DNA from: Escherichia coli
Lineage (GTDB): Bacteria; Pseudomonadota; Gammaproteobacteria; Enterobacterales; Enterobacteriaceae
Direction: 5' to 3' (one strand)
DNA: 64,000 nucleotides
NCBI RefSeq assembly: GCF_001677475.2
Contig: NZ_CP012498.1
Position numbers: made by a program. Numbering within the stretch: position 1 is the stretch's first letter; each line of letters opens with the position of its first letter. Below are positions 1 to 3,000 of the stretch, one piece after another.

Positions 1-3000
1 CCTGTCGCCGGGGGCAAAGACAGCCACAACCGTCTCCGCCAGTCCAGGGGTGAAATGCACATCCCACAAAAGTTTTTGCCCAAAAGCAGGCAAAAACTTT
101 TGCGGTCTGCCCCCGGACAGTCGTTTCCGGCCGTGGCAGTGATGCCCCTTGCGGCGAAGGTTCTCAAACGGGTGATGGTTAATACCGGAGGGAACAAAAG
201 ACAGGTCCCCGCAAAACGTCAAAACCGCGGCTCCCGAAACTCAACAGCTACCGTGTTTAGTCAAGAAAATTATGTGATGTTTGAACATTCCATCTTCAGG
301 AGAAATTTTCTCTGAGTTTTTATAAAAGAGCAGATGCTCAGTTAGATACCATGAAAGAAGGTAAAAGATACAAACATGTTGCTTCAGCATTGCTCCGGTG
401 TTATTGCTTACCATGTTGTTTTATAATGATTTTATTGATTGTATTCAGCATCGAATGGTAACTGCGTTTTCAGCACACCATAGCACCAGTGCACAAGTTT
501 TCGCATTAATGCTCCAATAGCACACATCTTTGACTTTCCCCTCTGGCATAACTTCGTATACATCTGTTTCATTACAGGGTTGAACCTCAGCCCACATAAA
601 GCTGCAAGATAAAGTTTTGTTCTTATCTCTGGTGGTCCAATTTTAGATAATTTAGGTTTTCCCTTTACAGATGTGCCAGATCTCCTTTCTACCGGAACTA
701 CACCAAGGAATGCTGCTGCCTGCTCTGCTGATTCGAATGAATGGCTTTTGAGTATCGCCAGCATATTTAATCCCAGCAGATAACCAACAGATTTTATTGA
801 TGTTAACAGTCTGAAATCCTGGTTTAGTTCCGGGTGAGTTTCAATATGTTCCTGGATCAGGACATCAAGATGTTCGATCTCATTGTTCAGCTCCTGAAGC
901 ATGTGTTCAATTGATGCCCTGACGGCATCAGGGCTGTCTGTAAAAACAGATTTTTCAAGTCTGTTTTTTTCTCTGGTGCTATCTGCAACAAGAGCGTCTC
1001 TGCGGCGTAAAAGAGCTCTAAGATACCGCACAGATTCCGGTGGTGGAGTCCATGCCTCAGGCTCTTTAAGGGAGCCATAACAAGCCAGCATCCAGGCATC
1101 GACTTTGTCATTCTTGGTCAGGATATTCATCCCTCTGGCAAATTCCCTTGTACGGTGAGGATTGGCTAAAGAAATTCTGGCGCCAGCAAAGTGAAGGCCA
1201 TAAGCCAGCGGTTCATGATATACCCCAGTGGCTTCCATGATGATATGAACTTCGCCCAGTTCACAGGATTGCTTCTTAAGCCACTCTGTCACGACTTTAG
1301 CCGCATCAGCGGTATTTTTTAGCTTACGAGTTTTGATCCTCCCTTTGATGCCCTCCCGTAAGAGACATAGATCAAGAGTGTTTTTACTGACATCAATACC
1401 TAATTGATACATTGGCATTTTTTCTCCTTTCACATAACCATCACGCCAATTTGTCTTGTTCATGCAGAGTCTTAGCTCTTGGCAACCGTTCAATGTTAAT
1501 GCTGGCGTGAAAGGTGAAGCAGAGGACTATAGCTGTTGACGAAGGTTATTACCTTAGATGATGGGGTAGGTTCTCTCCGCTTCATGCGATGGTAGCTAAT
1601 CATCGCTCGTTGATTACATACAAGATGATGGGGCTGAAAACCTGAGAGAGGAGAAAGCAGGATGAGTACCCGAAATATCCACGTTAACACCGCGTCGTAC
1701 ACGCTTCTTGTTGCCGGGAAGAAAAAAAACACCGGGGAAGAGTGGGACGTCCTGGAATTCAGCAGCCTGACTGAGCTGAAAAAATATCGCAAAAGCCACC
1801 CGGAAAAGATGGCCTTCAGTTATAGCTACGCGCTCAGTCAGGGTGTGGATAAGCAGTTCCGCCATATCAACATTGCGGAAGCCGATCACTTCAAACAGTT
1901 CCTGCGTCAGATTAAGCGTGCCGGCCTCGATATCCGGGCGATCTGCTGACCGGATGTGATGAATATCCCTCCTGATTGTTGCAATCTTGTTAACGGAGAT
2001 CGGGAGGGATGATATTAAGCGGAAAAAATTTTTATTAAATTTATTCTTTCATAAAGGAGTAGCTGTTATGCGATTAGCTTCCCGTTTTGGTCGGTATAAT
2101 TCCATCCGCCGTGAACGTCCTTTAACGGATGATGAATTAATGCAGTTCGTGCCTTCGGTATTTTCCGGTGATAAACATGAGTCCCGGAGTGAACGTTATA
2201 CGTATATTCCAACAATCAATATCATCAATAAGTTACGTGATGAAGGTTTCCAGCCATTCTTTGCCTGTCAGAGTCGGGTTCGTGATTTGGGACGTCGCGA
2301 ATACAGTAAACATATGTTACGTCTTCGCAGGGAAGGGAATATTAACGGGCAGGAAGTTCCTGAAATTATCCTGCTTAATTCACATGATGGTTCATCCAGT
2401 TATCAGATGATCCCCGGAATTTTTCGTTTTGTCTGCACAAATGGCCTGGTGTGCGGAAATAATTTTGGCGAAATCCGCGTTCCACATAAAGGTGATATTG
2501 TCGGGCAGGTTATCGAGGGAGCGTATGAAGTGCTCGGTGTTTTTGATAAGGTCACTGATAATATGGAGGCGATGAAAGAAATTCATCTTAACAGTGACGA
2601 GCAACATTTATTTGGCAGATCTGCACTGATGGTCAGGTATGAAGATGAAAATAAAACGCCAGTGACGCCTGAACAAATAATTACTCCCCGTCGTCGGGAA
2701 GATAAACAGAACGATCTCTGGACAACCTGTCAGCGGGTTCAGGAGAATATTATAAAAGGTGGATTGTCGGGGCGAAGTGCCTCCGGTAAAAATACCAGGA
2801 CAAGAGCCATTACAGGTATTGATGGTGATATCCGAATCAACAAGGCGTTATGGGTGATTGCCGAACAGTTCAGAAAGTGGAAATCATGATAATATAAGTA
2901 AAGCCCCGAAAATTTTCGGGGCTTTACTTATATTATCATTCTTCGGCATCGCTGTGTCGTCTGATATACCTCAATTCCATCAACCGGCTTTCCGGTTGTC

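What the first reader, a model, noticed from the sequence alone, without database searches (positions are those of the whole stretch)
2887..2938. Perfect 52-bp palindrome in the leading region
tgataatataagtaaagccccgaaaa followed by its exact reverse complement makes a 26-bp-arm palindrome starting at the stop codon of the upstream gene. As RNA it is a strong bidirectional terminator; as single-stranded DNA entering a recipient it would form a long hairpin.
Basis: seen in the sequence. Interest (0 to 1): 0.3.

Follow-up and report, generated by a model that had tools for sequence, protein, structure and literature searches.

The report
Conserved hairpin terminator in F-plasmid leading region
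The palindrome is real and is most likely an ordinary two-way transcription stop signal between two genes that face each other next to the transfer origin of an F-type plasmid; about half of all complete E. coli genomes carry it, and only its unusually long, conserved stem is mildly surprising.

Summary
The palindrome is perfect and one pair longer than reported: 27-nt arms at 2886-2912 and 2913-2939, 54 bp in all. It is the longest perfect inverted repeat in the 64-kb window.

The window is an F-like plasmid. [quoted passage not shown] It sits 846-899 nt from the oriT nick on the transferred strand, so it is in the leading region.

Its core is a textbook intrinsic terminator in both directions: a GC-rich 8-bp stem, a 4-nt loop and a U-rich tail. 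The outer arms are A-rich on the 5' side and T-rich on the 3' side.

The same hairpin is in F itself, in more than 4,100 PLSDB plasmids and in 2,668 of 5,426 complete E. coli genomes. Across relatives the arms are about 6-8 times less polymorphic than their flanks, and three pairs show compensatory changes. Only the apex A/T run varies. This window's A4T4 apex, which makes the palindrome spacer-less, was unique in my sample.

Best reading: a bidirectional Rho-independent terminator. The stem is longer than termination needs, which leaves room for an RNase III or single-stranded-DNA role; neither is tested. It is not an Frpo-type promoter. Interest is low.

The parts
2886..2939 (.). Perfect 54-bp palindrome (left arm 2886-2912, right arm 2913-2939). 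In relatives it is a 23-bp stem (2886-2908 with 2917-2939) plus a variable A/T apex (2909-2916).
2903..2922 (.). GC-rich core hairpin, GCCCCGAA-AATT-TTCGGGGC. It is the intrinsic-terminator stem-loop on either strand: -13.9 kcal/mol, or -17.3 with the flanking AAA/UUU.
2923..2937 (+). U-rich tail for + strand transcripts (UUUACUUAUAUUAUC, tail score -4.1). The predicted 3' ends of the ygeA-ygeB transcript fall around 2929-2931.
2888..2902 (-). The same U-rich tail for - strand transcripts, that is, read-in from the SLT gene. On the + strand this stretch is the A-rich tract and overlaps the DUF932 stop codon.
2068..2889 (+). DUF932 gene (273 aa), equivalent to F ygeB/yubP. I recall R1 'gene 32' and F ORF273 as further names; the only trace here is 'protein 32 protein of plasmid' in the Salmonella record. 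Its stop codon TGA at 2887-2889 lies inside the left arm.
   Evidence: (PF06067, E 3e-52)
1662..1949 (+). 95-aa ORF, equivalent to F ygeA. It is the first gene of the Frpo1/ssp1a-driven operon that ends at the palindrome.
3184..3693 (-). Lytic transglycosylase gene (SLT domain), equivalent to F ygfA; I recall gene X, ORF169 and R1 gene 19 as further names. It converges on the DUF932 gene. The 169-aa form starts at MKKW; longer ORFs reach 3786 and 3831.
   Evidence: PF01464, E 8e-22
2940..3183 (.). 244-nt non-coding spacer between the palindrome and the SLT stop codon; probably the 3' UTR of the SLT transcript. Its polymorphisms show no 3-base periodicity (15, 16, 15 by codon position, against 29, 10, 6 in the DUF932 coding region). 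It has no similarity to the DUF5983 genes that occupy this position in Klebsiella and Serratia plasmids.
3781..3800 (-). oriT nic region, TTTGCGTGGGGTGT|GGTGC, with the nick between 3785 and 3784. This defines the minus strand as the transferred strand, with the palindrome at its nucleotides 846-899.
1..247 (-). Part of the Frpo1/ssp1a-type single-stranded-DNA promoter hairpin, cut by the window start. It is 86% identical to the corresponding part of pMS15236A, where the whole hairpin folds at -110.9 kcal/mol.

Best explanation
The palindrome is a bidirectional Rho-independent (intrinsic) transcription terminator, the shared 3'-end hairpin of two convergent transcription units in the leading region of an F-like plasmid.

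Rightward transcripts of ygeA-ygeB (the DUF932 gene) start at the Frpo1/ssp1a promoter on the entering single strand, or at ordinary promoters once the plasmid is double-stranded. Leftward transcripts come from the lytic-transglycosylase gene ygfA/orf169. Both run into the same GC-rich stem-loop (2903-2922), followed by the same U-rich tract, and are released there. This keeps each gene from being transcribed antisense and keeps leading-region transcription from running on towards oriT.

The outer arms are A-rich on the 5' side and T-rich on the 3' side because each supplies the U-tract for one direction. Because the arms are complementary, they also lengthen the stem to 23-27 bp in any RNA that contains both.

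What is shown: the structure, its position, its conservation and the covariation. What is inferred: the termination itself.
For: 1. Anatomy. The core stem has 8 bp, five of them G-C, with a 4-nt loop (-13.9 kcal/mol). The tail UUUACUUAUAUUAUC is identical on both strands, with a tail score of -4.1, in the top 1.4% of window 15-mers. A generic scan also flags the site as terminator-like.

2. Position. It lies between the DUF932 stop codon (2887-2889, + strand) and the SLT gene (- strand). In F this is the only convergent junction of the leading region and the only tight inverted repeat of 20 nt or more in 14.5 kb. No other terminator-like site follows the SLT stop codon on the minus strand, and the 244-nt spacer is non-coding.

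3. Constraint.
- In 84 F-type sequences collected with a probe that does not include the palindrome, arm heterozygosity is about 0.009, against 0.06-0.08 in the adjacent 60-nt flanks. Common polymorphisms occur at 1 of 46 arm sites against 21 of 120 flank sites (Fisher p = 0.009).
- F-type and Salmonella pSLT-type plasmids are about 72-76% identical around the site but differ at only 5 of 46 arm positions (binomial p = 0.007).
- 98.7% of cells are paired. Three pairs changed on both sides: 2888/2937 G:C to A:U, 2893/2932 U:A to C:G, and 2903/2922 G:C to A:U. None of 500 shuffles reaches this.

4. Analogues. Klebsiella, Serratia and Xenorhabdus plasmids carry DUF932 orthologues of 61-72% identity. 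Each has an unrelated, significantly stable hairpin within about 10 nt of the DUF932 stop codon, and shorter hairpins at the convergence point with the next gene.

5. Biology. In F, ygeA and ygeB are transcribed from Frpo1 on the incoming strand, and ygfA has the opposite orientation (PMC9849209). Hairpin elements between convergent E. coli genes are a known, widespread class of bidirectional terminators (bioRxiv 10.1101/2022.10.23.513370).
Against: - No 3'-end or reporter data exist for this site in anything I could read.
- Only three consecutive U follow the GC stem.
- On the + strand the core stem begins 13 nt after the stop codon. At that distance a terminating ribosome can strongly repress an intrinsic terminator (PMC4824070).
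- The SLT stop codon is 244 nt away, so for that gene the hairpin ends a long 3' UTR and is not a snug terminator.
- The conserved, co-varying stem (23-27 bp) is about twice as long as termination needs. Termination alone does not explain the pairing of positions such as 2888/2937 and 2893/2932.
- Two of the four analogous hairpins in distant lineages (L018, L013) have no U-tract.
- The 84 sequences are related to each other, and some singleton variants come from low-coverage metagenome contigs.
Confidence: 0.7

Rival explanations
1. RNase III fail-safe, in the manner of the lambda tI/sib site, added on top of termination. Transcripts that terminate correctly end inside the right arm and keep only a 15-17-bp stem. 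Transcripts that read through contain both complete arms and form a 25-27-bp perfect duplex, long enough for RNase III. Cleavage would expose them to 3' exonucleases. This would destroy read-through RNA, which is antisense to the neighbouring gene, and would explain why the outer stem is kept paired.
For: - RNA ending at 2929-2931 folds with 15-17 pairs, and RNA ending at 2939 or later with 25 pairs.
- Pairing of the outer AT-rich stem is conserved, with two compensatory changes there.
- The same clade (F and pSLT, but not Klebsiella) has a second 22-bp stem inside the SLT coding region. That stem is fully paired only in the minus-strand RNA and also shows a compensatory change.
- From memory only: Koraimann et al. 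1993 (Mol Microbiol 9:717) reported that expression of R1 gene 19, the homologue of this SLT gene, is controlled by RNase III. I could not read this paper here.
Against: - There are no cleavage data.
- If the remembered RNase III paper is relevant, its site may be the coding-region stem and not this palindrome.
- A long stem is equally expected from two complementary U/A tracts.
- The requirement of about 20 bp or more for RNase III is taken from general knowledge and was not tested here.
Confidence: 0.2
2. A functional hairpin on the entering single strand. The stem forms on the transferred strand about 850 nt behind the relaxase-bound 5' end and acts at the DNA level. It could be a barrier or pause for complementary-strand synthesis (as shown for ssp2), a stop for RNA polymerase transcribing the single-stranded template from Frpo1, or a priming or protective structure.
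For: - The palindrome is on the transferred strand at nucleotides 846-899.
- It is the most stable local DNA fold in the first 2.1 kb of that strand, at -26.4 kcal/mol. The runner-up is the 22-nt-arm hairpin in ygfA, at -23 kcal/mol.
- A stem-loop in the F leading region (ssp2) does stall complementary-strand synthesis until UvrD resolves it, and Frpo1/ssp1a transcripts prime synthesis across ygeB (bioRxiv 10.64898/2026.01.09.698686).
- Both long hairpins occur only in the F/pSLT clade.
Against: - It is far smaller than the known functional hairpins: 54 nt and -26 kcal/mol, against roughly 300 nt and -111 kcal/mol for Frpo1.
- The stem cannot hold a -35/-10 pair, which needs about 29 bp.
- It has no similarity to Frpo.
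- The only gene between it and nic is in the orientation that cannot be expressed from the single strand, so delaying conversion there has no obvious benefit.
- As the review cited reports it, the two F leading-region single-strand initiation sites found in earlier work (ssiD and ssiE) are the Frpo promoters, not this site.
- SSB may melt a hairpin of this size.
Confidence: 0.12
3. Only the GC core and a few U are functional. The perfection of the outer arms is a mutational by-product: intrastrand template switching in a quasi-palindrome copies one arm onto the other. This would produce 'compensatory' double changes in a single step, without selection for a long stem.
For: - The apex A/T run changes length freely among lineages (A4T4, A4T5, A5T5, A6T4, A6T3, A4T6), which shows local replication slippage.
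- Natural variants exist with the right arm deleted (L053), a breakpoint in the left arm (L109) or a degraded core (L002), so the long stem is dispensable in at least some plasmids.
- Only three double changes were seen, in two lineages.
Against: - Arm polymorphism is 6-8 times lower than in the flanks, and no common variant lies inside 2887-2939.
- Between F-type and pSLT-type plasmids only 2 of 23 pairs changed, whereas the flanks differ at about 27% of sites. Arm-to-arm copying alone would let paired changes accumulate at roughly the neutral rate.
Confidence: 0.1
4. A double-stranded-DNA site: an operator for a dimeric DNA-binding protein, or a cruciform-forming sequence that acts in plasmid DNA and not in RNA.
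For: - Perfect dyad symmetry with an easily melted AAAATTTT centre.
- The arm sequence itself is conserved, not only its pairing.
Against: - A 54-bp dyad is much longer than usual operators.
- The centre varies in length by up to 3 bp among lineages, which would change the spacing and the helical phase of the half-sites.
- Compensatory changes preserve pairing and not sequence.
- No candidate binding protein is known.
- Distant lineages replace it with unrelated hairpins, which points to a structure role.
Confidence: 0.04

Closest known systems
Bidirectional intrinsic terminators between convergent E. coli genes (Ju et al. 2019, as described in bioRxiv 10.1101/2022.10.23.513370)
   Same: A single hairpin-encoding element lies between two convergent genes, with an A-rich tract on one side and a T-rich tract on the other, so each strand's transcript gets a stem followed by U's.
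   Different: The stem here is perfect and 23-27 bp long, well beyond the roughly 8-bp GC-rich core that I take as the termination hairpin. It starts inside the stop codon of one gene but lies 244 nt from the stop of the other. No 3'-end mapping exists for it.
Lambda tI terminator / sib RNase III retroregulation site (from general knowledge, not checked here)
   Same: A terminator hairpin sits inside a longer potential duplex that can form only in read-through RNA. Here the stem is 15-17 bp in terminated RNA and 25 bp in read-through RNA.
   Different: RNase III cleavage has not been shown here. The element is symmetric and would act on transcripts from both directions. No antitermination system is known to feed it.
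Frpo1/Frpo2 (ssiD/ssiE, ssp1a/b) and ssp2 single-stranded-DNA promoter hairpins of the F leading region
   Same: Hairpins that can form on the transferred strand in the leading region of the same plasmids.
   Different: Those are imperfect hairpins of roughly 300 nt (-111 kcal/mol in a close relative) that carry -35 and -10 boxes and lie upstream of operons. This one is a 54-nt perfect hairpin at the downstream end of the Frpo1 operon, has no promoter boxes and shares no sequence with them.
Short hairpins after the DUF932 gene in IncFIIK (Klebsiella), Serratia and Xenorhabdus plasmids
   Same: They sit at the same position, immediately after the DUF932 stop codon, and are significantly stable (z from -2.9 to -4.6).
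   Different: Their sequences are unrelated, their stems are 9-11 bp, and two of the four lack a U-tract. In the Klebsiella and Serratia loci a DUF5983 gene follows before the convergent gene.

Membership tests
Intrinsic (Rho-independent) terminator | GC-rich stem of about 5-14 bp with a short loop of 3-8 nt | tested here: met
   GCCCCGAA / UUCGGGGC: 8 bp with five G-C pairs, loop AAUU, -13.9 kcal/mol. A generic scan flags the site.
Intrinsic (Rho-independent) terminator | U-rich tract immediately 3' of the stem | tested here: met
   UUUACUUAUAUUAUC: 9 U in 15, with the first three consecutive. Tail score -4.1, in the top 1.4% of window 15-mers. It is weaker than a classic run of 6-8 U.
Intrinsic (Rho-independent) terminator | Located downstream of a stop codon, outside coding sequence | tested here: met
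   The core stem starts 13 nt after the DUF932 stop codon, and the spacer beyond it is non-coding. The short distance may allow repression by a terminating ribosome.
Intrinsic (Rho-independent) terminator | Transcript 3' ends map to the U-tract, and termination is measurable | not testable with these tools
   No RNA 3'-end data or reporter data were available.
Bidirectional terminator of a convergent gene pair | Lies between two convergently transcribed genes | tested here: met
   DUF932 (+, ends 2889) and the SLT gene (-, ends 3184). The arrangement is the same in F and in all relatives examined.
Bidirectional terminator of a convergent gene pair | Stem followed by a U-tract on both strands (A-tract 5', T-tract 3') | tested here: met
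   Because the palindrome is perfect, the stem and the tail are identical on both strands.
Frpo/ssi-type single-stranded-DNA promoter | Long imperfect hairpin (roughly 300 nt) whose stem recreates -35 and -10 boxes about 17 bp apart | tested here: not met
   The stem is at most 27 bp, too short for a -35/-10 pair. The only promoter-like match nearby (2960 to 2932, 9 of 12) uses sequence outside the stem and is within chance expectation. In a close relative (pMS15236A) Frpo1 folds as a hairpin of roughly 300 nt at -110.9 kcal/mol.
Frpo/ssi-type single-stranded-DNA promoter | Sequence similarity to Frpo, and a position upstream of leading-region genes in template orientation | tested here: not met
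   No similarity beyond A/T 8-mers. It lies at the 3' end of the ygeA-ygeB operon.
RNase III processing / sib-type retroregulator | Uninterrupted RNA duplex of about 20 bp or more that forms only in read-through transcripts | tested here: met
   25 pairs form when the RNA reaches 2939, and 15-17 pairs when it ends at 2929-2931.
RNase III processing / sib-type retroregulator | Cleavage by RNase III and an rnc-dependent change in expression | not testable with these tools
   The only lead is a paper remembered on R1 gene 19 (Koraimann 1993), which is not held in the library.
Dispersed repeated palindromes (REP/BIME, MITE-like) | Many copies per replicon or genome, in different contexts | tested here: not met
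   There is one copy in the window. In 5,426 E. coli genomes, 5,150 of 5,205 matching places are on plasmids; every sampled full-length match, including the one chromosomal match sampled, lies at the DUF932 gene. The 'two places per record' are most likely the palindrome matching itself on the other strand.
Single-stranded-DNA replication roadblock (ssp2-like) | A stable hairpin on the transferred strand that stalls complementary-strand synthesis | tested here: inconclusive
   A hairpin is predicted on the transferred strand (-26.4 kcal/mol; the strongest in the first 2.1 kb). Stalling cannot be tested here.

The most novel reading that the evidence does not exclude
The long stem may be more than a terminator. 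It and the 22-bp stem inside the transglycosylase gene (3516-3562) occur together only in the F/pSLT clade, both show compensatory changes, and both lie in the first 900 nt of the transferred strand and in the same minus-strand transcript. They could form one system in either of two ways. In the first, RNase III sites destroy read-through RNA and hold down expression of the cell-wall-cutting enzyme. In the second, structured DNA on the entering strand stops Frpo1-driven transcription on a single-stranded template and paces complementary-strand synthesis over the oriT-proximal end.
Probability: 0.15. Interest if true: 0.5.

Novelty: new member of a known kind. Interest (0 to 1): 0.2.

Why it matters
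The element marks the end of the oriT-proximal early operon (Frpo1-ygeA-ygeB) of F-like plasmids. That operon affects conjugation efficiency in F (PMC9849209). The element is carried by about half of complete E. coli genomes but is not annotated in any record I opened.

Knowing that it is a conserved bidirectional terminator helps in three ways:
- defining the transcription units of the leading region;
- interpreting RNA-seq data from early conjugation;
- designing insertions near ygeB/ygfA without breaking the element.

If the extra-long stem also acts through RNase III or as single-stranded DNA, it would add a small control point to plasmid establishment. As it stands, this is an ordinary regulatory feature.

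Tried and rejected
- **Rfam.** No family reaches threshold on the palindrome. There are only sub-threshold generic hairpin matches to miRNA precursors, His leader and similar families (E 0.03-0.7). FinP and the traJ 5' UTR are found as expected at 4581-4690.
- **Frpo-like promoter.** Rejected on size, absence of promoter boxes, position and lack of similarity.
- **Small genes in the spacer.** I considered the ORFs 2936-3109 (-) and 3009-3158 (+), the latter annotated in pEFC36a. Polymorphisms in 2940-3133 show no codon periodicity (15, 16, 15), so the spacer is treated as non-coding.
- **Spacer as a decayed DUF5983 gene.** No tblastn similarity.
- **Repeated element.** Single copy. The 'second place' in BLAST tables is most likely the palindrome hitting itself.
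- **G:U versus A:C bias among one-sided changes**, tried to tell which strand's RNA is selected. Five sites give a wobble pair in the + RNA and two in the - RNA; this is not significant and therefore uninformative.
- **Wider sampling of DUF932 orthologues in species-representative genomes.** It returned only 9 loci. The two distant ones were useful; the rest were F-type.
- **Literature.** I looked for earlier descriptions under ORF273/ORF169, ssiD/ssiE, gene 19 and RNase III. The library holds nothing that describes this hairpin, and the older F and R1 leading-region papers are not held.
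Full report
**Observation**

The sequence at 2887-2938 is an exact palindrome, as reported. 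It extends by one more pair, giving 27-nt arms at 2886-2912 and 2913-2939 with no spacer, 54 bp in all. The DUF932 stop codon TGA (2887-2889) lies inside the left arm.

Chance cannot explain it:
- The 23-nt arm occurs only at these two places in the window, with 0 expected in shuffles.
- The region folds at -44.2 kcal/mol as RNA (z = -9.5) and -26.4 kcal/mol as DNA (z = -10.5).
- It is the longest perfect inverted repeat in the 64 kb. The next perfect one is the 14-nt FinP/traJ stem.

**Context**

The window is an F-like conjugative plasmid; the closest record is pO86A1, 99.0% identical over 1987-3184. From left to right it contains:

| Coordinates | Strand | Feature |
|---|---|---|
| 1-247 | | part of an Frpo1-type hairpin |
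| 248-1622 | | IS110-family insertion |
| 1662-1949 | + | 95-aa ORF, equivalent to F ygeA |
| 2068-2889 | + | DUF932 gene, equivalent to F ygeB/yubP |
| 2886-2939 | | the palindrome |
| 2940-3183 | | 244-nt spacer |
| 3184-3693 | - | SLT lytic-transglycosylase gene, equivalent to F ygfA/orf169 |
| about 3785 | - | oriT nick |
| from 4107 | + | traM, traJ with FinP, traY, traA and the rest of the tra operon |

These assignments rest.

The F nic sequence CTTGTTTTTGCGTGGGGTGT|GGTGC is on the minus strand, with the nick between 3785 and 3784 (sequence from PMC2504302). The minus strand is therefore the transferred strand. It enters the recipient 5' end first, and the palindrome is its nucleotides 846-899.

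In F, ygeA and ygeB are transcribed from the single-stranded promoter Frpo1 while the plasmid is still single-stranded. ygfA has the opposite orientation and is expressed only after conversion to double-stranded DNA (PMC9849209). The palindrome thus sits at the end of the oriT-proximal early operon, at the one convergent gene junction of the leading region.

**Anatomy**

- The centre, GCCCCGAA-AAUU-UUCGGGGC (2903-2922), is an 8-bp stem with five G-C pairs and a 4-nt loop, at -13.9 kcal/mol (-17.3 with the flanking AAA/UUU).
- Because the palindrome is perfect, both strands then read UUUACUUAUAUUAUC. The TransTerm-style tail score is -4.1, in the top 1.4% of all 15-mers in the window.
- The 5' arm is A-rich and the 3' arm is T-rich. 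That is the layout expected when one hairpin serves transcripts from both directions.
- RNAs ending 7-9 nt after the GC stem would keep a 15-17-bp stem. Read-through RNAs form 25 pairs.

**Distribution and conservation**

The same hairpin is found in:
- the classical F plasmid, with a 23-bp stem and an A6T3 apex;
- 4,191 PLSDB plasmids;
- 2,668 of 5,426 complete E. coli genomes, almost always on plasmids.

To sample variants without bias, I collected loci with an 18-mer from the end of the DUF932 gene and aligned 84 F-type sequences.
- Arm heterozygosity is about 0.009, against 0.06-0.08 in the adjacent 60-nt flanks, one of them coding and the other non-coding.
- Common polymorphisms occur at 1 of 46 arm sites against 21 of 120 flank sites (Fisher p = 0.009). 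No common variant lies inside 2887-2939, although common variants sit at 2874, 2875, 2940, 2941, 2943 and 2950.
- What does vary is the apex A/T run: A4T5, A5T5, A6T4, A5T4, A6T3 and A4T6, tracking lineage-specific flanks. The A4T4 of this window, which makes the palindrome spacer-less, was unique in the sample.

Salmonella pSLT-type plasmids are only about 72-76% identical around the site, yet they differ at 5 of 46 arm positions (binomial p = 0.007). Four of those five differences form two compensatory pairs: 2888/2937 G:C to A:U, which includes the stop codon changing from TGA to TAA, and 2893/2932 U:A to C:G. One metagenomic variant has a third, 2903/2922 G:C to A:U.

Overall 98.7% of cells are paired, and three pairs changed on both sides, which none of 500 shuffles reaches.

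Two caveats apply. The sequences are phylogenetically related, and some singleton variants come from low-coverage contigs.

**Distant relatives**

Plasmids of Klebsiella (two lineages), Serratia and Xenorhabdus carry DUF932 orthologues of 61-72% identity and lack this sequence. Each nevertheless has an unrelated, significantly stable 9-11-bp hairpin within about 10 nt of the DUF932 stop codon (z from -2.9 to -4.6). Two of these hairpins have a U-tract and two do not. In the Klebsiella and Serratia loci a DUF5983 gene follows, and then another short hairpin at the convergence point.

The F-type spacer is not a decayed DUF5983 gene, and its polymorphisms show no codon periodicity.

**Interpretation**

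The best-supported reading is a bidirectional Rho-independent terminator shared by the ygeA-ygeB unit and the ygfA unit (confidence about 0.7). The features that define the class and can be checked from sequence are met: stem, loop, U-tract on both strands, an intergenic position and convergent genes. Hairpin elements between convergent genes are a widespread known class in E. coli (bioRxiv 10.1101/2022.10.23.513370).

The weaknesses are:
- there are no 3'-end or reporter data;
- only three consecutive U follow the stem;
- the core stem starts 13 nt after the stop codon, where a terminating ribosome can repress termination (PMC4824070);
- the ygfA stop codon is 244 nt away;
- the conserved, co-varying stem is about twice as long as termination requires.

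**What the extra length might mean**

1. *RNase III.* It could work like the lambda tI/sib site. Only read-through RNA forms a duplex of 20 bp or more, so RNase III would selectively destroy read-through, antisense-producing transcripts. I recall, but could not verify here, that expression of R1 gene 19 (the homologue of this SLT gene) is controlled by RNase III (Koraimann et al. 1993). While scanning the transferred strand I found a second long stem inside the SLT coding region (3516-3537 with 3541-3562). It is fully paired only in the minus-strand RNA (-41.6 kcal/mol), is conserved in F and pSLT with a compensatory flip, and is absent in Klebsiella. That stem may equally be the RNase III site.

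2. *Single-stranded DNA.* The hairpin is the most stable local fold in the first 2.1 kb of the transferred strand. A leading-region stem-loop (ssp2) is known to stall complementary-strand synthesis until UvrD acts, and Frpo1 transcripts prime synthesis over ygeB (bioRxiv 10.64898/2026.01.09.698686). Against this, the hairpin is far smaller than those elements, cannot hold a promoter, has no similarity to Frpo, and guards only a gene that cannot be expressed from the single strand.

3. *Mutational by-product.* Template switching in a quasi-palindrome could make the paired changes without selection. The low arm diversity argues against this as the whole story, but natural variants that lack the right arm do exist (L053, L109, L002).

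4. *Double-stranded operator.* This is unlikely, because the centre varies in length and pairing, not sequence, is what is compensated.

**Verdict**

The element is an unannotated but very common instance of a known kind of signal, present in F itself. It is mildly notable for the length and conservation of its stem. Interest is low (0.2). The most novel reading that is not excluded, a paired RNase III or single-stranded-DNA system together with the ygfA stem, has a probability of about 0.15.

Noticed in passing
window 248-1622 (transposase 432-1493, minus strand): A 1,375-bp IS110-family element is inserted, relative to pMS15236A and F, about 6 nt outside the base of the Frpo1/ssp1a single-stranded-promoter hairpin and 39 bp upstream of ygeA. 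It separates the early promoter from its operon. The same insertion, with the same junctions, is present in 81 PLSDB plasmids. Whether this IS targets Frpo-type hairpins was not examined.
   Followed up: partly
window 3516-3537 / 3541-3562 (minus strand, inside the SLT gene): A second long hairpin with 22-nt arms. It is 91% complementary as DNA but fully paired (two G:U pairs) in the minus-strand RNA, at -41.6 kcal/mol (z = -5.8). It encodes the catalytic-Glu region ESRYRVNA / GINPVTG. It is conserved in F and in Salmonella pSLT-type plasmids, with a compensatory T:A to A:T flip, and is absent in Klebsiella IncFIIK. It may be the RNase III site that I recall being reported for R1 gene 19.
   Followed up: partly
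window 2909-2916 and homologous positions in L001-L140: The apex A/T run of the hairpin differs in length among lineages (A4T4, A4T5, A5T5, A5T4, A6T4, A6T3, A4T6, A6T5) and tracks lineage-specific flanking substitutions. The spacer-less perfect palindrome of this window was seen in no other sampled sequence, and only one E. coli RefSeq record matches at 99% or more.
   Followed up: yes
L053, L109, L002 (homologues of window 2886-3030): Natural variants in which the hairpin is damaged. L053 has a deletion from the apex to about 90 nt downstream. L109 has a breakpoint inside the left arm. L002 (pEFC36a) has a degraded GC core. These may be palindrome-associated rearrangements or assembly errors.
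   Followed up: partly
L006 3356-3685, L018 2082-2390, L013 2088-2414: In Klebsiella and Serratia plasmids a DUF5983 gene sits between the DUF932 gene and the convergent gene (the SLT gene in L006). F-type plasmids have instead a 244-nt non-coding spacer with no detectable similarity to it.
   Followed up: partly
window 3693-3831: Automatic annotation of relatives starts the SLT gene at the equivalent of GTG 3786, which overlaps the oriT nick site (3784/3785). The 169-aa form, which has a signal-peptide-like start at MKKW (3693), fits the historical ORF169 better.
   Followed up: no
L009, L010, L012, L015, L016: F-plasmid leading-region DNA appears in assemblies labelled as a Lachnospiraceae MAG, a Collinsella MAG and Acinetobacter idrijaensis. 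This probably reflects binning or contamination artefacts and not true hosts.
   Followed up: no
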